Origin: Acetobacteraceae bacterium
GTDB taxonomy: Bacteria; Pseudomonadota; Alphaproteobacteria; Acetobacterales; Acetobacteraceae
Length of the DNA stretch: 38,804 nt
Direction: 5' to 3'
Assembly (NCBI GenBank): GCA_035644895.1
Contig: DASQNQ010000026.1
Location: forward strand, 1 to 38,804
This document shows positions 6,273 to 37,091 of the stretch, piece by piece. Positions within the stretch are counted from its first letter, which is position 1, and the number at the start of each line of letters is the position of its first letter. The notes below the pieces were generated by a model. The model was not told the origin of the DNA. It searched no databases and saw only the letters and a program-made list of their open reading frames with translations. Position numbers and translations under genes: made by a program.

Positions 6273-7051
6273 TGCGTGGCTTGCGTAACCTGGCCGGTGC
6301 CCTCGTCCTGGGCGCCGCCACCCTGATGGGCGCCGCCCCGGCCCGCGCGGCCGGGGAGGCGATCGCCCTGCCGCCCGTGAACTTCTCCTTCGAGGGCGTC
6401 TTCGGCGCCTTCGACCGGGCGTCGCAGCAGCGCGGCTTCCAGGTGTACAAGGAGGTCTGTTCCGCCTGCCACGGCATGCGGCTGCTCTCCTACCGCAACC
6501 TGCTGGAGATCGGGCTGCCCGAGGCGCAGGTCCGCGCCATCGCCGCCGAGTTCCAGGTCGTGGACGGCCCGAACGACCAGGGCGAGATGTTCGAGCGGCC
6601 GGCCCGCCTGTCCGACCGCTTCCGCCGCCCCTTCGCGAACGAGCAGGCGGCGCGCGCGGCGAACAACGGCGCCTACCCGCTCGACCTCTCGGTCATCGCC
6701 AAGGCGCGCGAGGGCGGCGCGGACTACATCTACGCGCTGCTGACCGGCTACACGGAGCCGCCCGAGGGCTTCCAGCTCATGGAGGGGATGCACTACAACA
6801 AGTACTTCCCCGGCCACCAGATCGCGATGCCCTCCGTGCTGAACGACGGGCAGGTCGAGTTCGCGGACGGCACGGAGGCCAGCGTCAGCCAGATGGCCCG
6901 CGACATCGCGACCTTCCTCGCCTGGGCGGCGGAGCCCGAGCTCGAGGCGCGGAAGGCGATGGGCGTGCGCATCATCCTGTTCCTGACCGTGCTCGGCGGT
7001 CTGACCTACGCCGTGAAGCGCAAGATCTGGGCGGACGTGAAGGGGCACTGA
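6272..7051 (+). CDS. petC: Cytochrome c1
   Basis: ATG overlaps the petB stop (TGATG). Signal peptide, RGFQVYKEVCSACH heme motif, IAMP axial ligand region and C-terminal TM helix. Confidence 0.97.
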   Translation: MRGLRNLAGALVLGAATLMGAAPARAAGEAIALPPVNFSFEGVFGAFDRASQQRGFQVYKEVCSACHGMRLLSYRNLLEIGLPEAQVRAIAAEFQVVDGPNDQGEMFERPARLSDRFRRPFANEQAARAANNGAYPLDLSVIAKAREGGADYIYALLTGYTEPPEGFQLMEGMHYNKYFPGHQIAMPSVLNDGQVEFADGTEASVSQMARDIATFLAWAAEPELEARKAMGVRIILFLTVLGGLTYAVKRKIWADVKGH

Positions 7052-7077
7052 CCCGCCTGCCCCGGCGCGACGCTGCC

Positions 7078-7105
7078 AAGGGCCGCCTCCCAGGGGCGGC
7101 CCTTT
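7078..7105. terminator. Intrinsic terminator hairpin between convergent petC and regulator
   Basis: AAGGGCCGCC-tcccagg-GGCGGCCCTT, a 10-bp stem ending in a short T run (7103-7105). Confidence 0.7.
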
Positions 7106-7109
7106 CGAT

Positions 7110-7880
7110 TCAGGCGTTCCGCAGCCGCACGGCGAGGGCCGCGACCATCGCGCCCGCCACCTCATCCTGGGCGGACAGGCTGTCCGAAGCCCGGGACTGG
7201 TAGCTCTCGGCCCAGATGGGGGAGACGGAAGGCGCCTCGAGCAGCCGGGCATTCACCCGGAACCTGTCTCCCACCTCCCGCACGCTGCCCTCGATCAGGT
7301 AGCGCGCGCCGAGCGCCCGGGTGACCTGCCCCAGGTCGGCCGCCTGCGCCACGGCCTGGGAGAGGCTGCGCGAGAGCACCTGCAACCCGGGCAGCCGCGC
7401 GAGGCCATTGATCAGCTCCTCGGCCAATCCATCGGCGAAGGCGCGCCCCGCCTCCCCCGGCCCGAGGGTCGCGAAGGGCAGGATGGCCACCGCCGCGGCT
7501 TCCGGGGCCGCCGGCGCGGGAACGTCGAGCAGGTAGCCCCGGCGCGGCACCGTTCGCAGGATCGTCCCGTTCGGGTCCCCGATGGCGCGCCGGATGTCGA
7601 GCACGCACTGCGTCAGGCTGTCATCCGTGACGTGCACGTCCCCCCAGACGGTGTCGAGCAGCCTCTCCCGCGGCACGACCCGTCCTGCCAGCTCCGTCAG
7701 GACCCGCAGGACCTCGAAGGACTTGCGCCGGAGCATCACGGGCGCGCCCGTCTCGTTCAACAGGAGCCCCCGCCCGAGGTCGAGCCGCGCGCGCCCGAGC
7801 CGCAGATAGCCGATGGGGGTCGAGGCATCCATGCCAGGCACGCCGGTCGGGCGCTGCGCGTCAAGGCCAAGCGGGGCCAT
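7110..7880 (-). CDS. OmpR/PhoB-type winged-helix (CadC-like) regulator with TolB-like domain, no TPR tail
   Basis: LRRKSFEVL...RERLLDTVW...VTDDSLTQCVLDIRRAIG...ILRTVPRRGY winged helix, then VAILPF...FADGLAEELINGLAR...YLIEGSVR. GGAGGAGAGGAGG RBS before 7880 (alternative start 7832). Confidence 0.85.
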   Translation of the reverse strand: MAPLGLDAQRPTGVPGMDASTPIGYLRLGRARLDLGRGLLLNETGAPVMLRRKSFEVLRVLTELAGRVVPRERLLDTVWGDVHVTDDSLTQCVLDIRRAIGDPNGTILRTVPRRGYLLDVPAPAAPEAAAVAILPFATLGPGEAGRAFADGLAEELINGLARLPGLQVLSRSLSQAVAQAADLGQVTRALGARYLIEGSVREVGDRFRVNARLLEAPSVSPIWAESYQSRASDSLSAQDEVAGAMVAALAVRLRNA

Positions 7881-8228
7881 GGCGAACCTCCTCTCCTCCG
7901 GCGCCGTCCTGTGGCCATCGCTGGGGTCGGAAGGGGGTCATCGTCTGCTGCTCTCCTTGTCCGATGGAGTGTTCAGGCAACCACCGTGCCGTCCGTCCCC
8001 TGAAGCCCTCGCTGCCCAAGCCGCCCAAACCGCGAGCCGTGCGTTTCGCCACGCATGCCGCGGCGGTCCACCGGCCGGCCCAAGGGGAAACATGCTCGAA
8101 CGGGCGGCACGCCCGGGCATCATCTATTTGCATGAGGCCGCGCTCCGTTCCGCTTCCGTGCCGGATGCGTGGTCCATCCTTGGACGAGCCGGACGCCTCC
8201 GGGGCGCAGCACCGAAGGCTGGGCCGGC

Positions 8229-8840
8229 CTAGCGGCGCGCCGACAGGACGCTGCGGCAGTCCCGTTCGAGCGCATCGGCCCCGGCGCCGAGGGCCAGCAC
8301 CGGCAGGGGCGTCGGCATGGCCGACCCGCCCCAGGCGAGCGCCTCGCAGAACGGCGCGGCGAGCGGTCCCAGCCCGGACATGCCGCCGGTGCGGAACACC
8401 GGCGCGCCTGAGCCGAGCCCGACCTGCGCGAGCACGATGCCTGCGAGGGCTGCATCATTGCCGAGCGCCGCGCGCGCTGCGGCATCCCCAAGCCCCACCA
8501 GCACGACGGGTCCCGAAACCGCCTGCTCCTCGAGCGCGAGCAGCGCCCCTGGCAGGCTGGGGTACGGCACCTCCATCACGGCTTCCTGCGCCGCGAGCAG
8601 CGAGGCCATGAGGCTGTTGCGCAGCGCCGGCGGGTCGGCCGGGTCGAACAGCAGCACCACCGTCGCCTCGCCCGGCCGCCAACCGGCCGGCAGGCTCAGC
8701 GTCGCGCCGACGGGCGCGGGGCCCGGCAGCACGACCGGGACGTATCGCGTGTACTCGCCCGCCGCGGCGGGCGGACCCGCGAATGGCAGGCCGAGGAGGA
8801 GGGCGCCGAGCAGCGCTCGGGCAGGCGCACGGGCTGGCAT
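8229..8840 (-). CDS. Hypothetical secreted protein (203 aa), degenerate alpha/beta-hydrolase-like
   Basis: C-terminal part of track ORF 8229..10253. ATG at 8840 gives a signal-peptide-like MPARAPARALLGALLLGLPFAGPPAAA and a GPVVLVGLGDAAARAAL segment. Confidence 0.65.
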   Translation of the reverse strand: MPARAPARALLGALLLGLPFAGPPAAAGEYTRYVPVVLPGPAPVGATLSLPAGWRPGEATVVLLFDPADPPALRNSLMASLLAAQEAVMEVPYPSLPGALLALEEQAVSGPVVLVGLGDAAARAALGNDAALAGIVLAQVGLGSGAPVFRTGGMSGLGPLAAPFCEALAWGGSAMPTPLPVLALGAGADALERDCRSVLSARR

Positions 8841-8917
8841 CTTGTCGGCCTTTGTTCCTGGACAGCCGCGCCTTGCGGGCGGCAACCCAAGCGGAGCAGG
8901 GCGGATGGCATACCGTC

Positions 8918-8945
8918 CCGAAAGAACGCCGAAATCACGCCGAAA
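8918..8945. repeat. Three CCGAAA direct repeats at exact 11-bp period
   Basis: CCGAAAgaacg CCGAAAtcacg CCGAAA starting at 8918, 8929 and 8940. Confidence 0.7.
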
Positions 8946-9020
8946 GCGTCTGATCTTCAAGCGATTGCAACGAAGCTGTAGAAGCGTGCCGCACCCCGAA
9001 GCCCCGAGGACCCTTCGACC

Positions 9021-9902
9021 ATGACCGACCAGATCCGCCCCGTCATCGGCCTCATCGGCGGATCCGGCCTCTATGACGTGCCGGGGCTCGAGGACCGGGA
9101 GTGGCGCCGGGTCACGACCCCCTGGGGCGACCCGTCGGACGAGATCCTGTTCGGGCGGATCGGGGAGGTGCCGGTGCGCTTCCTGCCCCGGCACGGCCGT
9201 GGCCACCCGACGCCGCCCTCCGCGCTGAACTACCGGGCGAACATCGACGCCATGAAGCGCGCGGGCTGCACGGAGATCCTGTCGCTGTCCGCCGTCGGCT
9301 CGCTGCGCGAGGACCTGCCGCCGGGCCACTTCGTCATCGTGGACCAGTTCATCGACCGCACCTTCGCGCGCGAGAAGTCCTTCTTCGGCTGTGGCTGCGT
9401 CGCGCATGTCTCCGTGGCCCACCCGGTCTGCGCGCGGCTCGGCGATGCGCTGGAGGGCTCGGCCCGGAAGCTCGGCCTGCCCGTCACGCGCGGCGGCACC
9501 TACCTGGTCATGGAGGGGCCGCAGTTCTCGACCAAGGCCGAGAGCGAGCTCTACCGCCAGTGGGGCTGCAGCGTGATCGGCATGACGAACATGCCGGAGG
9601 CGAAGCTCGCGCGGGAGGCGGAGCTCTGCTACGCGACGGTCGCGATGGTGACGGACTTCGACTGCTGGCACCCGGACCACGACCACGTGACGGTGGACCA
9701 GGTGGTGAAGGTGCTGTTCTCGAACGCAGACAAAGCGCGCGCGCTGGTCGCCGACGTGGTGCCCGCGCTCGGTGCGCGCCGCGGGCCGTGCCCCGCCGGC
9801 TGCGACCGCGCGCTCGACCACGCGCTGATCACGGCGCCCGAGCGGCGCGACCCGGCGCTGCTCGCGAAGCTCGACGCGGTCGCGGGCCGGGTGCTGGCCT
9901 AG
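9021..9902 (+). CDS. mtnP: S-methyl-5'-thioadenosine phosphorylase
   Basis: IGLIGGSG, FLPRHG, NYRANI, MEGPQFST, VIGMT and VTDFDCW motifs. Confidence 0.96.
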   Translation: MTDQIRPVIGLIGGSGLYDVPGLEDREWRRVTTPWGDPSDEILFGRIGEVPVRFLPRHGRGHPTPPSALNYRANIDAMKRAGCTEILSLSAVGSLREDLPPGHFVIVDQFIDRTFAREKSFFGCGCVAHVSVAHPVCARLGDALEGSARKLGLPVTRGGTYLVMEGPQFSTKAESELYRQWGCSVIGMTNMPEAKLAREAELCYATVAMVTDFDCWHPDHDHVTVDQVVKVLFSNADKARALVADVVPALGARRGPCPAGCDRALDHALITAPERRDPALLAKLDAVAGRVLA

Positions 9903-10807: not shown

Positions 10808-12922
10808 TCAGCGCGGCGGCACGGGCCCGGTGCGCTCGGCCTCGGCGATCAGCGCCACCGCGTCCTCCGGCAGCAGGTGGCGGGCGCGCACCAGCCGGAA
10901 GGCGGCTGCCAGCACGGCCTCCATGTAGGCATCCGGCGTCGGGTAGCGCTCCTCGACCGAGGGGCGCGGGTCGCCGGCCGCCTCGCGCTCCGCGCGCGTC
11001 TGCGCGAAGGGCACGAAGGATCCCATCAGGCTGCACAGCCCCCCGCCGAAGCGCCCGGACGGGTAGAGGTTCCAGCCCGTGTAGGTGCCGAGCGGGACGG
11101 CGAGCTGGAGGGAGCGGATGCCGGCGATGTCGTTCCCGTCCCCATCCACCTGCGGCACCAGCACCGGGTACTCCGGCTGGCCGATGCCCGGCGGCTCCCG
11201 GTTCGCGATGCCCGAGAGGTTCGCGGCGTCGAAGGAGGGCCCGTGGTCCAGCAGGTGCAGCGGGTTGGCGATGCCCGTGTAGCGCAGCGGCGGCCGCGCC
11301 ACGCCGAAGTAGCGGTTGGCCGGGATGGGGGGGAAGCGCACCTCCGGCGGGCGCACCAGCGTGCCGTCGGCGATGCGCGGCACGGCGGAGGGCGGCGGCT
11401 CCCGCCCCTCCGTCACCCAGTCCATCAGCGCGACGAGCAGCGCGCGCATGGCATGCAGCTGCGGGTTCGGGTTGGGCAACTGCGTGCAACCGATCACGGC
11501 CGGGTCGGTGGGCAGGCGCCCCGCCCAGGCGCCGTGCTGCGTGCCGGCAAGCAGGTACTGCCGCACCCACTCGGGCTCCGGCAGGTCGGCGCGGCCGAGC
11601 GGGTCTGTCAGCGCCAGGCTCTGCCGCCCCTCCCACATCTCGAGCGCGCTCGCGGCATGGATGAGCCTTGGGCAGGTGCCGCTTTCGGTGCAGCGGTCCA
11701 TGATGCCCTGGGTCCGCTCGGTGACGGGGTCCGTGACGCGGCTGTAGGCCCAGGGAAAGTCGTAGGCGGGGTAGAGGTTGTCCACCTGGTGGCCCCAGGC
11801 GCGCCCCGGCTGGCCGAAGCGGGTGTTCAGCGGCAGCCGCCCCGCGGCGACGTGCGCGATCGCGCCGTCGAAAACCCGGCGGCCGGTCAGCCCCTCGTTG
11901 AAGCCGAGATGGAGGAAGGTGCGCAGCATGCGCCCGGACTGGGACGTGCCGTGCACCACCGTCGTCCAGCCGCCCGGCCGCGGCAGGGGATGCGCCGCCC
12001 CCGTCCCGCGCTTGAGGTAGGCGCCCAGGTCGCGCATCGCCGCGAAGCCGAGGCCGAGCACCAGCGGGTCCCGCGCCCGGTAGACCAGCTCGTAGAGTTG
12101 GCCCGGCTCGAAGCCGCCCGGCATGCAGATCTCGGTGGCGGAGGCGCGCAGCGGCCTCCCCTCGTGGCAGGCACCGAAGGACCAGGCCTCGGGCGCGATG
12201 GGGCGGCGCGGCGCCTGCTGGTGGGCGCGCACCGTCAGGATGGGGCGGAAGCCCTCCGGCCCCGGCGCGTCGCTGCCCTGGGTGGCGGACGGGTAGGCGC
12301 GGTGCGTGGGTCCGGCGAGGCCGCCCTGCGCCAGCCCGACGGTGGTGGTGGCCGTGGGCACCACGAACTCCGCCCGCACCGTGCCGGTGATGGAGGCGCC
12401 ATCCGGCGCCTGGGCCACCGGCACGCGCAGGCGCAGCCGCCCCTCGCCCGGCAGCAGGTCGCCCTGCCAGCCGAAGGCCACGAGCACGAGGCCGCGCCGC
12501 ATGAGGAACCCGTCGCCCGGATCCACCCCCGCATTCCCACCCGGCGCGCCGTTGTAGGTCGAGAGCAGGCGCCGGTTGCCGCGGTTGACGATGTCGAAGA
12601 GGAGGACCCCTGCTGCCTTCGCAGGATCGGCGGGGCGGAAGATCTCGACCTCCGTCTCGTACTCCACCCGGCCGCGCGCGTTGCGCGGGGCAAGGGCGAT
12701 GTCCTGGATGAGGACGTTGCGCGGGTGGGCCGGGTCGACCTCGCCATAGGCGCGGGCGACGACGCGCTGGTAGGGGCCGGCATCGCCGAAGGCCCGGCCA
12801 CCGAAGGCGGGTTCCACGCGCAGCACCTCGAAGCCGGTGATGCGCGCCGAAGCTGGCAGGGGAGCCAGCAGGAGCGCGAGCAGGCCGGCCAGGAGGAGGA
12901 GGGGGGCGGTCAGGCGGGGCAT
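10808..12922 (-). CDS. Secreted alpha/beta-hydrolase-domain protein (about 704 aa)
   Basis: Signal peptide, NRGN, GWQGD, GLGFAAMRD, GTSQSGR nucleophile elbow, GTQH, VPQVDGDGN and PLGTYTGWN motifs. ATG at 12922. Confidence 0.85.
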   Translation of the reverse strand: MPRLTAPLLLLAGLLALLLAPLPASARITGFEVLRVEPAFGGRAFGDAGPYQRVVARAYGEVDPAHPRNVLIQDIALAPRNARGRVEYETEVEIFRPADPAKAAGVLLFDIVNRGNRRLLSTYNGAPGGNAGVDPGDGFLMRRGLVLVAFGWQGDLLPGEGRLRLRVPVAQAPDGASITGTVRAEFVVPTATTTVGLAQGGLAGPTHRAYPSATQGSDAPGPEGFRPILTVRAHQQAPRRPIAPEAWSFGACHEGRPLRASATEICMPGGFEPGQLYELVYRARDPLVLGLGFAAMRDLGAYLKRGTGAAHPLPRPGGWTTVVHGTSQSGRMLRTFLHLGFNEGLTGRRVFDGAIAHVAAGRLPLNTRFGQPGRAWGHQVDNLYPAYDFPWAYSRVTDPVTERTQGIMDRCTESGTCPRLIHAASALEMWEGRQSLALTDPLGRADLPEPEWVRQYLLAGTQHGAWAGRLPTDPAVIGCTQLPNPNPQLHAMRALLVALMDWVTEGREPPPSAVPRIADGTLVRPPEVRFPPIPANRYFGVARPPLRYTGIANPLHLLDHGPSFDAANLSGIANREPPGIGQPEYPVLVPQVDGDGNDIAGIRSLQLAVPLGTYTGWNLYPSGRFGGGLCSLMGSFVPFAQTRAEREAAGDPRPSVEERYPTPDAYMEAVLAAAFRLVRARHLLPEDAVALIAEAERTGPVPPR

Positions 12923-12980
12923 GGGCTGGGGACAACCTGCCCCGCAGGACACAGGCTCTGCAACCAGGGATGCCGCGGGA

Positions 12981-16614: not shown

Positions 16615-17820
16615 CTAGCCTTCGATCGTCACCGCGCGGAGCTGCTGTCCGTTGCGCCGGCGGCTCGGCTGCTGGATGTCCACCTCGTCGCGCCGGACCG
16701 TCTCCCGCACCGTCTCGACACGCTGCGTGCGTTCGGTCCGCACCACGACCTCCTCGCGAAGGCGGCGGCTCTTCTGCACGGTCGGGACCTCATCGGTCTC
16801 GACCACCTCGACCGTCACCTCCGTCAGGATCTCGCCCGTCACCTGGTCGGTCACCGGGCGCCGGCGCTCCACCACCACGCGCTCGGTCTGCAGCGTGACC
16901 TGCCGCTCGACGGGGGTTTCGACCACGTAGCGGCGGATGCGCGCCGTGCCGCGGTTCTCCGTGCGCTTGCCGACCTCGAGGACCTCCTCGCCGAGCGGGA
17001 TGACCTCCTCCATGCCGGACACGCCGCGCGCCGTCGTGGAACCGGTCTGCTGCGTGCCCTGCATCGCCCGCAGCCATGGCCACATGAACATGCTGCCCAT
17101 GGCCATCGCCTGGGCCTGCGCGCGTCCGGCTTCACCCATGGATGCGGCCGTGGTCTGGCGGGCGGCCTGCTCGACGGTCTTGGCTGCGGTCGTGACCGGC
17201 TTCAGCGCGGCGTCGGCGAGCTGGCGAGCCTCGGCGCGCACGCGCTGCTCGGCGGCGGCCTGCGCCCGCTCGGCCTTCGCGGCCTCCTGCTCCCGCAGCT
17301 CGGCCTGGCGGGCCAGGAACTCGGCCTGCTCGCGCTCCTGCCGGGCCTTTGCCCGGCGATCCTCGGCCTCATCCTGCCTGGCCTGCTCGGCCTCGGCGAG
17401 GCCCGCCTCCATCCTCTCCGTGACGCCCTGGACCTGCTCCTCGCTCAGCGCACGCTGCACGGCCGGCAGAAGCTCCTTCCTCTCGTCGCGGGCATGCTGG
17501 CGGAAGGCCTTCTGCACCTCGGAGAGGCGCGCCATGAACGCCGCGTCGTTCTTCGGCATGCCGTCGAGCTCCGCGAGGGCCGCGCGCAACTCCTTGTTGT
17601 CCCGGATCGCGTCGGCGACCAGCTCCTTCGTCTCGGGATTGCGCCGGAGGACGGGGAAGAGGTGCTGCTCCTCGAGGCTGCTGTGGAGCTCCAGTTCAGC
17701 CTTGAGCTCCGCGTAGAGCTTCTCCCGCGTCTTCACTGCGCCATCCGAGGTTTCGGACAGCCTGGCGAACAGCTCGTTGGCTTTGACGGGACCGGCTTGC
17801 ATCAGGGTTCGGAGGTTCAT
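16615..17820 (-). CDS. Hemerythrin-like domain + coiled coil + YsnF/AvaK (DUF2382) fusion protein (401 aa)
   Basis: ELELHSSLEEQHLFP and FRQHARDERKELLP hemerythrin-like helices; C-terminal EEVIPLGEEVLEVGKR...RYVVETPVERQVTL...VRETVRRDEVDI. ATG at 17820. Confidence 0.85.
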   Translation of the reverse strand: MNLRTLMQAGPVKANELFARLSETSDGAVKTREKLYAELKAELELHSSLEEQHLFPVLRRNPETKELVADAIRDNKELRAALAELDGMPKNDAAFMARLSEVQKAFRQHARDERKELLPAVQRALSEEQVQGVTERMEAGLAEAEQARQDEAEDRRAKARQEREQAEFLARQAELREQEAAKAERAQAAAEQRVRAEARQLADAALKPVTTAAKTVEQAARQTTAASMGEAGRAQAQAMAMGSMFMWPWLRAMQGTQQTGSTTARGVSGMEEVIPLGEEVLEVGKRTENRGTARIRRYVVETPVERQVTLQTERVVVERRRPVTDQVTGEILTEVTVEVVETDEVPTVQKSRRLREEVVVRTERTQRVETVRETVRRDEVDIQQPSRRRNGQQLRAVTIEG

Positions 17821-17910
17821 GATACTGCTTTCGAAATAATGATGTTCGGCCAAGCATTCGCCAGATCGAGGGGTCGGCTTGACGGAAAGGGAGTGCTGCA
17901 ACGCTGATGT

Positions 17911-17922
17911 TGCACTGCAGCA
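17911..17922. promoter_or_regulatory. PhaR-like operator
   Basis: TGCACTGCAGCA fits the TGCRNYGCASMA PhaR consensus described for Bradyrhizobium. It overlaps the inverted repeat TGCAAC-N6-GTTGCA (17897-17914). Confidence 0.45.
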
Positions 17923-17926
17923 TGAC

Positions 17927-17951
17927 AACGTGGCCGCCACAACCGAGTTGC
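17927..17951 (-). promoter_or_regulatory. EcfG-like promoter for hemerythrin/DUF2382 gene
   Basis: Minus strand GCAAC-N16-CGTT. Confidence 0.55.
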
Positions 17952-18139
17952 ATTGCGGCGGGCTGGAATTTTCTACTTTCCAGATCGTGCCGGCTGAATC
18001 CGTTCCGACAGCAGCGGCAAAGCTGGCCGGCGGCGTCGTGAAGCTCCGAACCGCTACGGAAGCGGAGCCGGGTCGCTGGCCTGCCGGTCGGCCCAGGGCC
18101 GCTTTCGGGCCGAGTGTGGGCACCCGCGCCGGCCAACGC

Positions 18140-27927: not shown

Positions 27928-29247
27928 TCACGCCATCAGCGGCGCGCGCGCGTCCAGCACGTCCCCGACCGCCTGCACGAAGCCCTCGCACTCCGCCTCG
28001 CCCACCATGAGCGAGAGCGCCACCATGCCGCGGCGGGCGATGTAGAAGCCGCGCTCCAGCAGGTCGAGGAACAGCAGCTCGCCGAGCGCCTTGTCGGCCA
28101 CGGCGGCCTCCGCGGCGTTGCGCGGCGGCCGGTCGCGGAAGTGGAAGCACATCATGGAGCCGCGGCCAGTGACCTGCACCGGCAGGCCGCGTCGGCCGAC
28201 CTCCGCCAGCAACGCTTCCCGCAGCTGGTCGCCGCGTGCGTTCAGCGCGATGGCGGCCTCGGGCGTGTAGATCTCGCCGATCGCAGCGATCCCGGCCGAC
28301 ATGGTCACCGTGTTGTTGTTGAAGGTGCCCGCATGGGGCACGGCATCGGGGCGCCGCGGGTCGAACACCGCCATCAGGTCCGCGCGTCCGCCGAAGGCGC
28401 CGAAGGACATGCCGCCGCCGACATACTTGCCGAGGGTGATGAGGTCCGGCCGCAGGCCCAGCTCCGCCCCCAGCCCGCCCGGTGCGAGGCGGCTGGTCAT
28501 CACCTCGTCGAGGATGAGCAGCGCGCCCGTCTCCGCGGCCAGGTCGCGCAGCGCGTGCAGGAAGGCGGGCTCCGCCGGGATGCAGCCGCCACTCCCCAGC
28601 ATCGGTTCCAGGATGATGGCGGCGAGGTCCGCGGCGTGCTGCCGCACGAGTCGCGCAGCGGCCTCCGCGTCGTTGTAGGGGCACAGCACGACCTGGTGCG
28701 GGACGTTCACCGGGCTGCCACCGCCGCCATAGGTCATCAGCCCGCCATGGTAGCCGCCCTCCATCGCGAGGATCCTGCGGCGCCCGGTCGCGATGGTGGC
28801 GGTGGCGACGGCCAGCAGGTTCGCCTCGGTGCCGGAGTTGGTGAAGCGAACCCGCTCGACCGCGGGGAAGCGGTCGCAGACGAGCCGCGCCAGCCGCACC
28901 TCGAGCCTGTTGTGGCCCGTGAGGTTCACGCCCATGTCGAGCGCGCGCAGCACGGCGGCCCGGATCGCCGGGTGGGAGTGTCCGAACAGCCCCGCCGTGT
29001 ACTCGCCGATCATGTTCACATAGGTGTGGCCGTCCGCGTCGTGGATGCGGCAGCCCTCCCCGCTGGCAACGGCAAGAGGGTAGGGGCCGTGGAACAGGAC
29101 GCTGCGCGTGTTGCCGCCCGGCATGACCTCCGCGGCGCGCTGGTGGAGGGCGAGGCTCTCCGGCCGGCGGCGCGCATAGACCTGCCGCGCTTCCTCAAGC
29201 GCCGATGCGATGCTGGAATTGCGGAGCGGCGCGGCGGTCATGCCCAT
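27928..29247 (-). CDS. Class III PLP aminotransferase, beta-amino-acid transaminase-like (GSA-aminomutase superfamily)
   Basis: MPGGNTRSVLF, GEYTAGLFGHS, RFTNSGTEAN, DEVMTSRL, LGKYVGGGMSFGAFGG and HAGTFNNN motifs. Start 29247 or 29241. Confidence 0.85.
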   Translation of the reverse strand: MGMTAAPLRNSSIASALEEARQVYARRRPESLALHQRAAEVMPGGNTRSVLFHGPYPLAVASGEGCRIHDADGHTYVNMIGEYTAGLFGHSHPAIRAAVLRALDMGVNLTGHNRLEVRLARLVCDRFPAVERVRFTNSGTEANLLAVATATIATGRRRILAMEGGYHGGLMTYGGGGSPVNVPHQVVLCPYNDAEAAARLVRQHAADLAAIILEPMLGSGGCIPAEPAFLHALRDLAAETGALLILDEVMTSRLAPGGLGAELGLRPDLITLGKYVGGGMSFGAFGGRADLMAVFDPRRPDAVPHAGTFNNNTVTMSAGIAAIGEIYTPEAAIALNARGDQLREALLAEVGRRGLPVQVTGRGSMMCFHFRDRPPRNAAEAAVADKALGELLFLDLLERGFYIARRGMVALSLMVGEAECEGFVQAVGDVLDARAPLMA

Positions 29248-29315: not shown

Positions 29316-29597
29316 ATGGAAGCGCTTTTCTCCACCGGGCGGGTCGCCGACCTGATCCTGCTGACCCTGGCGCTGGAGGCCGTGCTGCTCGGTGCCTGGT
29401 GGCGCCTGTCGGGCACCGGCGTTCCGCCGCGTGCGCTGCTGCCCTTCCTGGCGGCGGGGGCCTGCTTTGCGCTGGCCTTGCGGGTAGCACTGACGGATGG
29501 CTGGTGGGGGTGGGTGGCGGTGCTGCTCGGGGGCGCGTTCCTGGCGCACCTCCTCGACGTCGGCCTGCGATGGCACACCCATGTCAGGAGAACGTGA
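29316..29597 (+). CDS. Small hypothetical membrane protein (93 aa) of a type seen in photosynthesis gene clusters
   Basis: MEALFSTGRVADLILLTLALEA...LALRVAL...AHLLDVGLRW; three hydrophobic segments; ATG at 29316. Confidence 0.7.
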   Translation: MEALFSTGRVADLILLTLALEAVLLGAWWRLSGTGVPPRALLPFLAAGACFALALRVALTDGWWGWVAVLLGGAFLAHLLDVGLRWHTHVRRT

Positions 29598-29624
29598 CAA
29601 ATTGGATGTCAAGAAAATCTGACA
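29582..29624. promoter_or_regulatory. Tandem PpsR/CrtJ boxes (TGT-N12-ACA x2, 7 bp apart)
   Basis: TGTCAggagaacgTGACA (29582-29599) and TGTCAagaaaatcTGACA (29607-29624), then TAGCCT -10-like element at 29631. Confidence 0.85.
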
Positions 29625-29697
29625 GCATGGTAGCCTTGCGTCCGCGGCCCGGCCGACGGGCTCGGTGCCGCCCGGAAAAGGACGGGAGGCCCGTACC

Positions 29698-30051
29698 ATG
29701 GCACAGAACGCGTACCGCGCCGCCTTCGAGAGGCTGAAGGCGGACTTCCAGCAGGCCCAGCGCGAGTCGATGGGCGAGGAGGCGCTCGAACGGGCGCGCG
29801 CCGCCCTCGACGCCTTCGCGGGCAGCATGGTGACCGACCCGCGCAAGCTGCGCTGGGTCGCGGAGGAAAGCCCCTCCTGCGCCGCGGAGATCCGGCAATG
29901 GGCCTCGGGCCTGTCGCTCCCGCGCCAGGTGCTCGACCCGACCCATGACGGGTCCTATGCGCGGATCTGGGCGGCATCGCTCGGCGACGATGCGTTGCGC
30001 ATGCTGCGCGTCGTGCTGCAGGCCGAGGCGACGCGGCGCGTGCGGGCCTGA
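29698..30051 (+). CDS. Hypothetical protein (117 aa), probably PpsR-regulated
   Basis: GGGAGG RBS, ATG at 29698, GC3-rich codon use, downstream palindrome. No family recognised. Confidence 0.78.
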   Translation: MAQNAYRAAFERLKADFQQAQRESMGEEALERARAALDAFAGSMVTDPRKLRWVAEESPSCAAEIRQWASGLSLPRQVLDPTHDGSYARIWAASLGDDALRMLRVVLQAEATRRVRA

Positions 30052-30063
30052 GGCAGAGGAGGG

Positions 30064-30085
30064 GGATCCCGGCGCGCCGGGATCC
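30064..30085. terminator. Perfect 22-bp palindrome between convergent ORF117 and hemC
   Basis: GGATCCCGGCGCGCCGGGATCC. Confidence 0.6.
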
Positions 30086-30091
30086 GCCCCT

Positions 30092-31117
30092 TCAGGCGAA
30101 GACGTCGGCCGGGCTGTCCCGCCAGAGGCTCTCACCCAGCTCGCGGCCGATGGCCGCGGCCTGCTTCGCGGCGCCCGTCACCGCACGGCGCAGCAGGAAG
30201 GAGCCGTCGGCGCGTGCCACCAGCCCCTCCACCGCCAGGCCGCCATCGGGCAGCCGCCGCGCATGGCCGCCGATGGGCGTGCGGCAGGAGCCATCCAGCG
30301 CCCCGAGCAACGCGCGCTCCGCCAGCGCCACGACGCGGGCATCGGGATCCTCGATCGCCGCCAGCAACTCCCGCAGGTCGGTGTCGTCCGCGCGGCAGGT
30401 GACGCCGACGATGCCCTGGCAGGCGGCGGGCAGCATGGCCTCGGGCGGCAGCACGACGCCCGCGACCTCCTGCAGGCCGAGGCGGTTCAGCCCGGCGATC
30501 GCCAGCAGCGACGCGTTGAACTCCCCGGCGCGCACCCGGCCAAGCCGGGTCTGCACGTTGCCGCGGATCGGCTCCACCCGCAAATCCGGGCGCGCGTGCA
30601 GGAGCTGCGCCTGGCGCCGGACGGAGGCGCTTCCCACCACGGCGCCGCGGGGCAGGCAGGCGAATGGGTTCTCGGCACAGATCTCGCCGCAGCCCTCGCC
30701 GAGCACGATGGCATCCCGCGCATCCTCCCGCCGCAGGGTGCAGGCGAGAACGATGCCGGGTGGAAGTTCCGTCTCCAGGTCCTTCAGGCTGTGCACCGCG
30801 AAGTCCACGCGCCCGTCCAGCAGCGCCTCGTGGATCTCCTTGGCGAAGAGTCCCTTGCCGCCGATGTCGGCCAGCGGCCGGTCCTGGATGCGGTCGCCGG
30901 AGGTGGCGATGACGCACTCCTCGAACGCCTCGAAGTCGCGCATCACCGGGCAGAAGCGGCCGATGATCGAGAGGAAGTGCCGGGTCTGCCACAGCGCGAG
31001 CGGCGAGCCGCGCGTGCCCACCTTCAGCGGCAGGGTGCGCCCGTGCGGCGCGACCATCGCGCCGGCCTTGCGTTGCCGGAGTTCGCCCGTCATCGGGCGT
31101 TCGGTCCAGTACACCAT
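30092..31117 (-). CDS. hemC: Hydroxymethylbilane synthase (porphobilinogen deaminase)
   Basis: GTRGSPLALWQT, SGD, GGKGLFAKEI, VHSLKD, IRGNVQTR and LDGSCRTPIG motifs. Start uncertain (31117, 31093 or 31057). Confidence 0.95.
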   Translation of the reverse strand: MVYWTERPMTGELRQRKAGAMVAPHGRTLPLKVGTRGSPLALWQTRHFLSIIGRFCPVMRDFEAFEECVIATSGDRIQDRPLADIGGKGLFAKEIHEALLDGRVDFAVHSLKDLETELPPGIVLACTLRREDARDAIVLGEGCGEICAENPFACLPRGAVVGSASVRRQAQLLHARPDLRVEPIRGNVQTRLGRVRAGEFNASLLAIAGLNRLGLQEVAGVVLPPEAMLPAACQGIVGVTCRADDTDLRELLAAIEDPDARVVALAERALLGALDGSCRTPIGGHARRLPDGGLAVEGLVARADGSFLLRRAVTGAAKQAAAIGRELGESLWRDSPADVFA

Positions 31118-34550: not shown

Positions 34551-35972
34551 TCAGCTCTCCGCCTCCTCGCCGCCAAGGTCGCCGAGCCCGTAGCGCCGCA
34601 GCTTCACGTAGAGGCTCTGGCGGCTCAGGCCGAGCATCTCGGCGGCCGAGGCGCGGTTGTCGTTGGAGAGGTTCAGCGCCGCCTCGATGGCGAGTCGCTC
34701 GATGACGTCCGTCGCCTCGCGCACCAGTTCCTTCAGCGGCACGCGGCCGACGAGCTCGGTGAGCTGGTCGACGGACCGGGGCAGGGAGCGCTCGCCCTCC
34801 GCCGCCGTGGCGGGCCTGGGGCCGACGTCGCGGATCGTGAAGCCGAAGCAGGGCTCGTCGCCGTTCGGCACGGCGACGGCCGAGACCTCGACCTCCGTCT
34901 GCGCGCCGTGCTCGCCATGAATGACGGTGGGGAAGAGCCGGACCGGGCCACGCATGCGCAGGTTGGCGGCGAGCACGTCGAAGTCGACGCCGGGCCGGCC
35001 CAGCCAGCGATCCACGGGCTCGCCTCGCGCCTGCTCCTCCGCCGCGAGCTGCGCCATTTCAAGGAAGGCGTTGTTGGCCAGCAGGATGCGGCCATCGGCG
35101 CCCGTCACCAGGAAGGCATCGGGCGCTGCCTCGACAACGTGCAGCAGCTTGCGCCGCGGGTCGGTGGCCGTGGTGGCCGGCGCGCCTGCGGATGCCGACG
35201 CAATCCGCAGCAGGAGGGCTGCGGACTTCTCCTGGCGCAGGAGGGAGGCGGCGATCAGAACCTCATCGCCCGGCGTGCCGGCAAGCCGCGCCCGCACCTC
35301 CTCCGCACGCCCGCCGCCGCGGACGCCGGAGAGCACGGCGAGCACCGCGCCCTGGCTGTCCGGGTGCAGGATGTCGGTGACGTTGCGTCCCTTGGCCCCC
35401 TTCCCCCCGTCGCCGAACAGGCGTGCCGCGGCCGGATTCGCCTCGGTCACGCGGAGCGCGGTGTCGAGGAGCAGGACGGGCTCCGAGGTCGTCTGGAACA
35501 GGACGCGGTAGCGCGCCTCCGCGTTGCGCAGCCGCGAGTAGTCCCGCTCCACGGATTGCTGGACTTCGACAAGGCGCTGCTGCAGCGCGGCCATCGGCTG
35601 CAGGTCGCGGCCGAGTGCCATGATGCAGTCAGGCCGGAGCCGGATGGTGGAGAACAGGATCGGCACGTTGCGACCGTCGGGGGCGGTATGGTTCAGGTGA
35701 CGCCAGCGGCTGGGGCCTTCCGACGTGGCCTCGCCCACCAGCTCCGCGACCTTTCCGCGGCTGTCTTGGGTGACGAGACCCGACCACGGCACGCCGAGCC
35801 ATTCCGCGCCCACGAGGCGTTCCGCCAGTTGCTGGCTGCCGACGGCCATGTCCCTGATCACCCCGCCATCGTCAACGACCAGGGCCACATCGGTTGCGGC
35901 CGCGGCGATGCGTGCCGCGACGTCCGACGGAAGCGTTCCGATCGTGCGCTTCGGGGCCGTGAAGTCCTTCAC
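34551..35972 (-). CDS. ppsR: Photosynthesis transcriptional regulator PpsR/CrtJ
   Basis: Three PAS regions, QQRLVEVQQSVERDY Q-linker, C-terminal HTH NRASAAEMLGLSRQSLYVKLRRYG. GTG start. Confidence 0.95.
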   Translation of the reverse strand: MKDFTAPKRTIGTLPSDVAARIAAAATDVALVVDDGGVIRDMAVGSQQLAERLVGAEWLGVPWSGLVTQDSRGKVAELVGEATSEGPSRWRHLNHTAPDGRNVPILFSTIRLRPDCIMALGRDLQPMAALQQRLVEVQQSVERDYSRLRNAEARYRVLFQTTSEPVLLLDTALRVTEANPAAARLFGDGGKGAKGRNVTDILHPDSQGAVLAVLSGVRGGGRAEEVRARLAGTPGDEVLIAASLLRQEKSAALLLRIASASAGAPATTATDPRRKLLHVVEAAPDAFLVTGADGRILLANNAFLEMAQLAAEEQARGEPVDRWLGRPGVDFDVLAANLRMRGPVRLFPTVIHGEHGAQTEVEVSAVAVPNGDEPCFGFTIRDVGPRPATAAEGERSLPRSVDQLTELVGRVPLKELVREATDVIERLAIEAALNLSNDNRASAAEMLGLSRQSLYVKLRRYGLGDLGGEEAES

Positions 35973-36019: not shown

Positions 36020-36037
36020 TGTCAGTCCCAGAAGACA
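36020..36037. promoter_or_regulatory. PpsR box upstream of ppsR
   Basis: TGTcagtcccagaagACA; a degenerate partner TGG-N12-ACG lies at 36045-36062, 7 bp away. Confidence 0.65.
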
Positions 36038-36062: not shown

Positions 36063-36995
36063 TCATGCATGCAACGTTTGCGCGTAGGCCTGTTCGACAA
36101 GCAGCTTCAGCAGTGCCTCCGCCTGCAGCACGGCCTGCTGTGCGTCCGGCGCGGTGGCGTCGGCACCGACGCGCAGGACAAGGTCTGGCTGTTCGGTGAA
36201 GAGCGTGCCGCCGACGAGAATGCCGATCGCGGGATTCTGCGAGTTGCGGCGGATGGAGCGGATCAGCGAGGCGAGCGCGTCGAGCATCGGCTCCGAACTC
36301 GCGGTCACGCCGACGACGGCGAACCAATTGCGCCGCACGAGGGCGGTGACCTCCGTCGCAGGTCCTGAGGGCGAGTCCACCACGTCCCAGCCTGCGCGGC
36401 GGAGGAACTCGCCAACCATGCTCATGCCGAAAGTGTGCTGTTCGCCCTGCGGCGCCGTCATCAGGGCGCGGCGGCAGTCGCCTGGGCACGCGCCGCATTC
36501 GTGCAGGAAGCTCGGGCTCATCTCGTGCAGGAGCGTCTGCAGCCGCCACAGCCCGAGCGTCACGTCGGTGAAGTGGCACCTGTCAAGCAGCCACAGCTCA
36601 CCGAGCCGTCGTGCGGCCGGCGCCATCAGGTCGAGATAGAGCTGCTCGACGGGCACGTCGCGCGCGACGAGCGCGGCCAGGTGCTCGGACGCCGGTGCGC
36701 TCGACACCGCAAGCAGCTCCTCGCCCAGGAGGTCGATCTCGTCCTGCGCGATGACATAGGTCGAGAGCGGTGGCGAACGGGATCCGAGAAGGCCGCGCTG
36801 CGCAAGCAGCAGGCGCGGCACCACCTCGCTCTCCACGGCGCGGGTCAGCACCTGCAGCCGGCGTCCGATGCCTTGCAGCGCCGGGGGCACGGGCAGGCCG
36901 AGGGGCATGACATCGGAGCGGTGCATCTCGAGCACCGCGTCGCCTCCCGCCACATTCACCGTGCGCCCCAGAGCGGACATCAGCCTTGCGCCCAT
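36063..36995 (-). CDS. ppaA: Cobalamin-binding photosynthesis regulator PpaA/AerR
   Basis: LYLDLMAPAARRLGELW...FTDVTLG, GEQHTFG (ExHxxG B12 motif), ILVGG and GADAT; upstream of ppsR; GGGAGG RBS. Confidence 0.9.
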   Translation of the reverse strand: MGARLMSALGRTVNVAGGDAVLEMHRSDVMPLGLPVPPALQGIGRRLQVLTRAVESEVVPRLLLAQRGLLGSRSPPLSTYVIAQDEIDLLGEELLAVSSAPASEHLAALVARDVPVEQLYLDLMAPAARRLGELWLLDRCHFTDVTLGLWRLQTLLHEMSPSFLHECGACPGDCRRALMTAPQGEQHTFGMSMVGEFLRRAGWDVVDSPSGPATEVTALVRRNWFAVVGVTASSEPMLDALASLIRSIRRNSQNPAIGILVGGTLFTEQPDLVLRVGADATAPDAQQAVLQAEALLKLLVEQAYAQTLHA

Positions 36996-37032: not shown

Positions 37033-37091
37033 GTGTCAAGCCGAACTTACGTCAATCCAGCTTGACACTCGGGGACGGGGCCACCTAGCCT
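37033..37091. promoter_or_regulatory. Divergent ppaA/bchF promoter region with overlapping imperfect PpsR boxes
   Basis: GTGTCAAG...CTTGACAC inverted repeat containing TGT-N12-ACG (37034-37051) and CGT-N12-ACA (37050-37067). TTGACA(37062)-N18-TAGCCT(37086) points toward bchF. Confidence 0.7.

What the first reader, a model, noticed from the sequence alone, without database searches (positions are those of the whole stretch)
29582..30085. Unrecognised 117-aa gene behind the strongest PpsR operator in the window: candidate new photosynthesis-regulon component
Seen: two perfect TGTCA-N8-TGACA palindromes 7 bp apart (29582-29624), then TAGCCTT at 29631 (the same -10-like heptamer as in the bchF promoter at 37086), a GGGAGG RBS, a helical-looking 117-aa ORF with one Cys and no CxxCH, and a 22-bp palindrome. 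Known: closely spaced tandem TGT-N12-ACA sites are the classic cooperative PpsR/CrtJ operator. Inference: this is a monocistronic, pigment-co-regulated gene at the cluster edge that matches no bch/crt/puf/puh/hem protein I recognise. The boxes cover the -35 position and no consensus rightward -35 is present, so PpsR could repress or activate.
Basis: partly seen in the sequence, partly recalled or inferred. Interest (0 to 1): 0.75.

Follow-up and report, generated by a model that had tools for sequence, protein, structure and literature searches.

The report
Unnamed gene captured by photosynthesis regulator
A small conserved gene of no known family sits at the edge of the photosynthesis gene cluster in a few related bacteria, nearly always behind a DNA motif that the photosynthesis repressor PpsR likely binds, and its distant relatives lie in mobile DNA of non-photosynthetic bacteria, so it is likely a foreign gene recruited as an accessory of pigment production.

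Summary
Two exact TGTCA-N8-TGACA boxes lie 7 bp apart, ahead of a real 117-aa gene. This is the only closely spaced exact pair in the genome. The genome's three other perfect boxes precede crtI, bchE and crtE. Orthologues occur in three related genera, at the end of bchG-pucC-bchP-hemC. An exact box lies upstream in 33 of 34 loci, against 0 of 13 matching loci in phototrophs lacking the gene, so box and gene travel together. In 301 genomes, all 14 carriers are among 89 bchF-positive ones. Corrections: the perfect tandem is nearly unique to this genome. Orthologue promoters (TTGACA-N17/18-YAGCCT, 18 of 34) point rightward with the box over -35, which favours repression. The gene is optional (2 of 27 phototrophs in its own genus) and sometimes heads an operon with ispH. 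The family is not phototroph-only: a two-cysteine sister clade sits in a prophage and a conjugative element beside defence genes, without boxes. No family or fold match was found. The protein is predicted soluble and helical, with no invariant Cys or His. Best reading: a PpsR-repressed, non-enzymatic accessory, likely recruited from mobile cargo. Its biochemical role is untested.

The parts
29582..29599 (.). PpsR-type box 1 (TGTCA-N8-TGACA); overlaps the stop codon of the upstream 93-aa ORF
29607..29624 (.). PpsR-type box 2, 7 bp after box 1; its left half TGTCAA lies 18 nt before TAGCCT (candidate -35)
29631..29636 (+). TAGCCT, candidate -10; also in the bchF and bchE promoters of this genome; 161 copies on both strands of 3.9 Mb
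   Evidence: function inferred
29685..29690 (+). GGGAGG ribosome-binding site; orthologues show GGAGG-like sites and begin at the same Met
29698..30051 (+). 117-aa gene, unnamed family; predicted soluble six-helix protein; D47, R49, W91 invariant in the 22-row alignment that includes the distant clade
30064..30085 (.). 22-bp perfect palindrome between the convergent ORF and hemC; no U-run; unique in the genome and not conserved in orthologous loci
29316..29597 (+). 93-aa hydrophobic ORF, upstream neighbour in 32 of 34 loci, but also present in phototrophs lacking the gene
30092..31117 (-). hemC (cluster copy), last gene of ppaA-ppsR-bchG-pucC-bchP-hemC, convergent with the ORF
34551..35972 (-). 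ppsR (PAS domains plus Fis-type HTH), the likely cognate regulator; ppaA/aerR (B12-binding) at 36063-36995

Best explanation
This is a real, conserved gene of an unnamed family at the edge of the photosynthesis cluster; PpsR likely represses it by covering its -35 element, and its product is predicted to be a soluble, cofactor-free helical protein that likely acts by binding a partner in pigment-precursor supply. Shown: gene, synteny, conserved box, box lost with the gene, purifying selection, restriction of this clade to phototrophs among the genomes searched. Inferred: PpsR binds and represses in oxygen or light, with relief through PpaA/AerR, so the gene is made together with bch/crt genes. 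Inferred, weakly: the protein is a non-enzymatic modulator or adaptor, probably oligomeric, for an enzyme that feeds tetrapyrrole or isoprenoid synthesis (HemC, BchP or IspH are its fixed neighbours). Inferred: the gene came from a family carried as cargo by mobile elements, lost the two conserved cysteines and gained a PpsR promoter in an ancestor of these genera, then was lost often.
For: Exact box within 250 nt upstream in 33 of 34 loci, one mismatch in the 34th, against 259 of 20000 random 250-nt windows of this genome. No exact box anywhere in 13 of 13 control loci from phototrophs lacking the gene, including two where the 93-aa gene abuts hemC directly. The same motif marks crtI, bchE, crtE, and with one mismatch bchC and bchF, in this genome. 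Geometry matches R. capsulatus bchC, where one palindrome spans -35 (PMC5362033, passages). 14 of 14 carriers are among 89 bchF-positive of 301 genomes. In genus g22, 24 of 33 good-quality phototroph genomes and 0 of 7 non-phototroph ones carry it. dN/dS 0.04-0.18 in seven chosen close pairs; median 0.31 over 388 pairs. Model: six helices, pLDDT 86.6, pTM 0.60; no hydrophobic segment in the window's protein; Cys61 is not conserved and no His is invariant. Sister clade: hhalign probability 98, E 1e-13, same helix pattern, one side of a 100/100 branch; loci seen are a prophage and a conjugative element.
Against: No binding, expression or knockout data exist for it here. The partner-binding step rests on the lack of catalytic or ligand motifs and on gene neighbourhood only. 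The loci are not independent: about half come from one tight subclade of one genus. In the window itself neither candidate -35 (TGTCAA, or GTGACA) is consensus, and the 7-bp gap differs from the 8-9 bp studied elsewhere (PMC4452267, passages), where spacing changed redox response. ispH follows in only 5 of 24 extended loci, and not in the window. Direction of recruitment is unrooted: only 2 of 10 sister-clade proteins have a known context. 25 of 27 phototrophs of its own genus lack the gene, so it is dispensable.
Confidence: 0.45

Rival explanations
1. The protein keeps an ancestral protective role (anti-phage, growth-arrest or stress protein) and was placed under PpsR so that it is made when the photosystem is built; it does not touch pigment enzymes.
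For: Both known sister-clade loci are mobile cargo slots: one directly downstream of a Shedu sduA on the same strand in a conjugative element, one between tail and lysis genes of a prophage, 3 kb from a Pycsar pair. Patchy presence fits accessory defence or stress genes.
Against: No convincing PADLOC or PHROG match for either clade. The phototroph clade is fixed at one chromosomal site across genera. Two loci are too few to show enrichment near defence genes.
Confidence: 0.22
2. The protein is a feedback regulator of photosynthesis genes, binding DNA, PpsR or PpaA/AerR, working like MppG or the small PpsR co-regulators.
For: Small, soluble, under a strong box, close to ppaA-ppsR; many conserved Arg residues (R7, R49, R52, R76, R89, R113, R114); Lys-rich tails in the sister clade.
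Against: Net charge is near zero in the phototroph clade (-4 to +3). No helix-turn-helix or other DNA-binding family reaches a cut-off. Not a BadM/Rrf2 protein like MppG.
Confidence: 0.17
3. The boxes control this promoter by activation, or serve another transcript: a leftward promoter, or antisense read-through that damps the convergent hemC operon; the protein is incidental.
For: The minus strand has TTGACA at 29612-29607; the window lacks a consensus rightward -35; the gene is convergent with hemC, often with only 10-20 nt between stops; PpsR/CrtJ can activate in some species (abstracts).
Against: No -10-like hexamer lies 17 nt from the leftward TTGACA, which would fire antisense into the 93-aa gene. 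Genes beyond it differ among loci. The box disappears with the gene. The protein is under purifying selection.
Confidence: 0.1
4. The protein binds a pigment, haem or metal and acts as a carrier or sensor (GUN4-like or redox switch).
For: Helical, next to hemC; the sister clade keeps two cysteines (positions 7 and 58).
Against: In the phototroph clade those positions are R and S; many members have no Cys at all and no His is invariant.
Confidence: 0.06

Closest known systems
PpsR/CrtJ regulon promoters (R. capsulatus bchC; Rvi. gelatinosus pucB, crtI)
   Same: TGT-N12-ACA palindromes over the promoter, closely paired in the window; cognate ppsR and ppaA in the same cluster.
   Different: Gap 7 bp instead of 8-9; most orthologues keep one exact box; the target is not a bch, crt, puc, puf or hem gene.
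MppG (RSP_2888) of R. sphaeroides
   Same: An accessory factor co-expressed with photosynthesis that modulates pigment output (PMC4263372, passages); a possible functional analogy only.
   Different: MppG is a BadM/Rrf2 transcription factor with C-terminal cysteines under PrrA control; this protein matches no such family and lacks conserved cysteines.
Small pigment-pathway accessory proteins such as PufQ, GUN4, Ycf54 (recalled, not from a call)
   Same: Small non-enzymatic proteins that tune pigment synthesis by binding an enzyme: the working model here.
   Different: No sequence match in Pfam, NCBIfam or PDB; no membrane anchor; found in only a few genera.
Two-cysteine sister clade in Caulobacteraceae mobile elements (P0011, P0018-P0028; uncharacterised)
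   Same: Homologous over the full length, shared D-x-R, P and W, same six-helix prediction.
   Different: Two conserved cysteines, often a Lys-rich tail, no PpsR box, hosts without reaction-centre genes, located in a prophage or conjugative element.

Membership tests
PpsR/CrtJ regulon | TGT-N12-ACA palindrome(s) in the promoter region | tested here: met
   two exact in the window; at least one exact in 33 of 34 loci
PpsR/CrtJ regulon | Cognate ppsR in the genome, with the same motif at known targets | tested here: met
   ppsR, ppaA; crtI, bchE, crtE, bchC, bchF
PpsR/CrtJ regulon | Box overlaps -35/-10 of the gene's own promoter | tested here: inconclusive
   TTGACA-N17/18-YAGCCT in 18 of 34 loci; non-consensus -35 in the window; no start site mapped
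PpsR/CrtJ regulon | PpsR binding and PpsR-dependent expression | not testable with these tools
   needs EMSA, ChIP or mutant RNA-seq
Core photosynthesis cluster genes | Present in most purple phototrophs | tested here: not met
   14 of 89 bchF-positive genomes; 2 of 27 in own genus; 0 of 400 other class genomes (only 11 candidates scored per genome)
Any curated protein family (Pfam, NCBIfam, PHROG, PADLOC) | Score above the curated cut-off or a clearly significant E-value | tested here: not met
   best hits weak and partial
Any solved fold | Structural match over most of the chain | tested here: inconclusive
   best Z 6.7 over about 60 residues of the N-terminal helices, no Z of 8 or more
c-type cytochrome, Fe-S or pigment-binding protein | Invariant Cys/His ligands or CxxCH | tested here: not met
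Anti-phage defence system | Enrichment in defence islands and protection from phage | tested here: inconclusive
   2 of 2 sister-clade loci are near defence genes; phototroph clade is not; no assay

The most novel reading that the evidence does not exclude
A mobile-element defence or stress gene was domesticated into the photosynthesis gene cluster, rewired under PpsR and stripped of its cysteine pair, and now acts as a new kind of checkpoint that couples photosystem building to pigment-precursor supply or to cell protection in aerobic phototrophs.
Probability: 0.2. Interest if true: 0.75.

Novelty: new variant of a known kind. Interest (0 to 1): 0.5.

Why it matters
The PpsR regulon is taken to be a fixed set of pigment and antenna genes. 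Here an unnamed protein family carries one of the best-conserved boxes in its cluster (the only exact refined box in 7 of 23 ten-kilobase cluster ends) and has relatives in mobile DNA of non-phototrophs. That gives a traceable case of a photosynthesis cluster gaining a gene and a promoter. Close relatives with and without the gene exist, so its effect can be tested directly. The limits: it is rare, dispensable, and its function is not shown.

Tried and rejected
Family and structure searches found nothing usable: Pfam, NCBIfam, PHROGs, PADLOC, PDB sequences (best E 0.001, partial, a lyase helix region), ESM Atlas (all under the bar), Foldseek PDB and viral, VIA-align for both clades. A blank does not show a new fold. 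Complex prediction with PpsR gave no answer (score 0.00); it is no evidence either way. Search for longer fused forms found none, weak evidence; P0013 has a ChaC-like tail and is probably a frameshift or assembly chimera. Weak genome hits L008-L010 (E about 7e-4, partial) and viral hits L049-L051 (short, 43-50% over 28-40 residues) were set aside as likely chance; of these only the G109 region was looked at. Plasmid and phage collections gave no match to P0020; viral contigs gave none for P0020 or P0011. Soil metatranscriptome contigs cover the ORF from 29654, 29686 and 29691 onward and none listed crosses the boxes; these are contigs, runs were chosen with this stretch and DNA may be present, so this is not counted as evidence of expression or of a start site. 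The light/dark transcriptome of Sediminicoccus KRV36 (PMC10949492: passages, section 5, rows of supplement 3) does not help: crtI, not this gene, follows its cluster hemC; I could not search that genome by sequence. The 22-bp palindrome was rejected as a REP-type repeat or conserved terminator. Overlapping minus-strand ORFs and the longer GTG start at 29665 were rejected on codon bias, RBS and orthologue starts. Three gene-positive genomes without reaction-centre matches (G567, G585, G589; 77-88% complete) are fragmented; two show hemC next to the gene. Paper searches listed no paper that describes this gene; subscription journals are not covered. Earlier scan findings: none.

Full report
Observation. 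The window holds the end of a photosynthesis cluster, bchF then ppaA-ppsR-bchG-pucC-bchP-hemC on the minus strand; the ORF is convergent with hemC. A 93-aa hydrophobic ORF ends inside box 1. The host looks like a Roseomonas-type member of the Acetobacteraceae; this name is my inference from recall, no call names it.

Is the operator real? The genome has 216 exact TGT-N12-ACA sites, and this is the only pair closer than 100 bp. The refined motif TGT[CA]A-N8-T[GT]ACA has 5 perfect sites: these two and one each before crtI-, bchE- and crtE-like ORFs; one-mismatch sites precede bchC and bchF. So this is the organism's pigment-gene motif. Published PpsR/CrtJ operators have the same form with 8-9 bp gaps (PMC4452267, passages), and in R. 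capsulatus bchC one palindrome spans -35 and the other -10 (PMC5362033, passages).

Is the gene real, and where does it occur? Six close homologues were found by sequence and 20 representatives by profile, all 62-148 aa. Genome searches found it in 2 of 29 genomes of its own genus, 31 of 55 of genus g22 (one is a split partial match), 1 of 4 of g23 and 0 of 400 other genomes of the class (few candidates scored per genome). In one draw of 301 genomes, all 14 carriers are among the 89 with bchF. In g22 genomes of good quality, 24 of 33 with reaction-centre genes carry it and 0 of 7 without. In its own genus 27 of 29 have reaction-centre genes, yet only 2 carry it, so it is optional. Kin are not independent, so these are descriptions, not tests. 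Selection is purifying: dN/dS 0.04-0.18 in seven chosen close pairs, median 0.31 over the 388 pairs with dS 0.1-1.5, one pair at or above 1.

Synteny and promoter. I examined 34 loci (window, G005, G345, one metagenome contig, 30 of g22; duplicates and three weak hits were dropped). hemC is downstream and convergent within the locus in 32, and the 93-aa gene is upstream in 32. All 24 extended loci show the gene at the hemC end; 23 reach bchF, one ends at its contig edge. An exact box lies within 250 nt upstream in 33 of 34, a one-mismatch box in the other, against 1.3% of random windows. Two exact boxes occur in only 2 of 34; a partner with at most two mismatches in 6 of 34. In 18 of 34 the right half of the box, TTGACA, lies 17-18 nt before YAGCCT, the layout of this genome's bchF promoter; most of these 18 are close kin. 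The control is the strongest result: in 13 loci around the 93-aa gene from phototrophs lacking the ORF (15 genomes queried, 2 gave no locus), no exact box occurs, and in two of them the 93-aa gene abuts hemC with the slot simply empty. The box therefore belongs to this gene. A leftward promoter has no -10 and would be antisense to the 93-aa gene. In 5 of 24 extended loci ispH (LytB) follows on the same strand 12 nt after the stop, and G345 keeps a short remnant of its start, so the gene can head an operon with an isoprenoid-precursor enzyme.

The protein. AlphaFold2 gives six helices, pLDDT 86.6, pTM 0.60, with a loose loop at about 71-84. High local and modest global confidence would fit an open chain that packs in an oligomer; this is inference. 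No family or fold match was found (see Tried and rejected). Conserved residues are Asp, Arg, Pro, Trp and Leu; Cys61 is often Ala and no His is invariant. Net charge is near zero and the window's protein has no hydrophobic segment. This argues against a haem, pigment or iron-sulfur protein and gives little support to DNA binding.

Distant relatives. Ten proteins of 24-38% identity form a separate clade (100/100; 34 rows, near-duplicates and fragments left out), homologous by profile comparison (probability 98, E 1e-13; note they were first found with this family's profile) and with the same helix pattern. They keep Cys at positions 7 and 58, where the phototroph clade has Arg and Ser. Two contexts could be read. 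In Caulobacter sp. BE264 the gene lies in a prophage, between tail and lysis genes on the opposite strand, 3 kb from a Pycsar pair. In G1023, of the same family, it directly follows a Shedu sduA inside a conjugative element that also has a TIR gene. Neither genome has a reaction-centre match, and neither has an exact box within 200 nt upstream. Only 2 of 351 genomes of that family carry it. The tree is unrooted, so recruitment from mobile DNA into the cluster is the simpler reading, not a shown one.

Mechanism. Shown: gene, position, box-gene linkage, selection, a homologous mobile clade. Likely (about 0.85): PpsR controls the gene, most likely by repression over -35. Weakly inferred (about 0.5 given that): the protein binds a partner in pigment-precursor supply. 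Rivals are a retained protective role, a feedback regulator, and an activated or antisense promoter.

Verdict. The control circuit is a known kind; the target is a previously unnamed family with an unexpected link to mobile cargo. My six paper searches listed nothing on it. It is rare and dispensable and lacks a functional clue, so interest is moderate, 0.5.

Noticed in passing
window 29316-29597 (+): 93-aa hydrophobic protein with no Pfam or NCBIfam match, found in 13 of 15 related phototroph genomes queried, often divergent from a cytochrome c2-like gene; a more widespread unnamed cluster gene than the ORF itself.
   Followed up: partly
L075, L082, L085, L086, L014 (between the ORF and hemC); L013:8200-8320: A cluster copy of ispH directly behind the ORF; the sequence at the junction resembles a PpsR box that includes the ispH start codon. 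G345 keeps only a remnant of the ispH start.
   Followed up: partly
L047:3758-4972: Pycsar pair (PycTM, PycC) in a Caulobacter sp. BE264 prophage; also an unnamed 377-aa HExxH protein (6787-7920) and a membrane-anchored coiled-coil protein (8345-9148) flanking the distant homologue: a candidate defence hotspot.
   Followed up: partly
L054:6347-7621 and 11937-12971: Shedu SduA and an SpbK-like TIR protein in a Trb-type conjugative element of G1023.
   Followed up: partly
window 37034-37091; genome C337:2240-2295: TAGCCT recurs as a candidate -10 in the bchF and bchE promoters; the bchF promoter has two one-mismatch boxes that overlap by 2 bp, and the crtE promoter two that overlap by 5 bp.
   Followed up: partly
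window 36020-36037: A one-mismatch PpsR box between ppaA and ppsR suggests that ppsR regulates itself.
   Followed up: no
window 27928-29241 (-): Class III aminotransferase just outside the cluster edge, possibly HemL-like; not next to the gene in other loci examined.
   Followed up: no
window 16615-18123 (-): Reading frame with both a hemerythrin and a DUF2382 match; may be a fusion or two genes in one frame.
   Followed up: no
L085 (G596): Many frameshifts across ppsR, pucC, bchP, hemC and ispH; likely assembly errors in a 56% complete genome.
   Followed up: no
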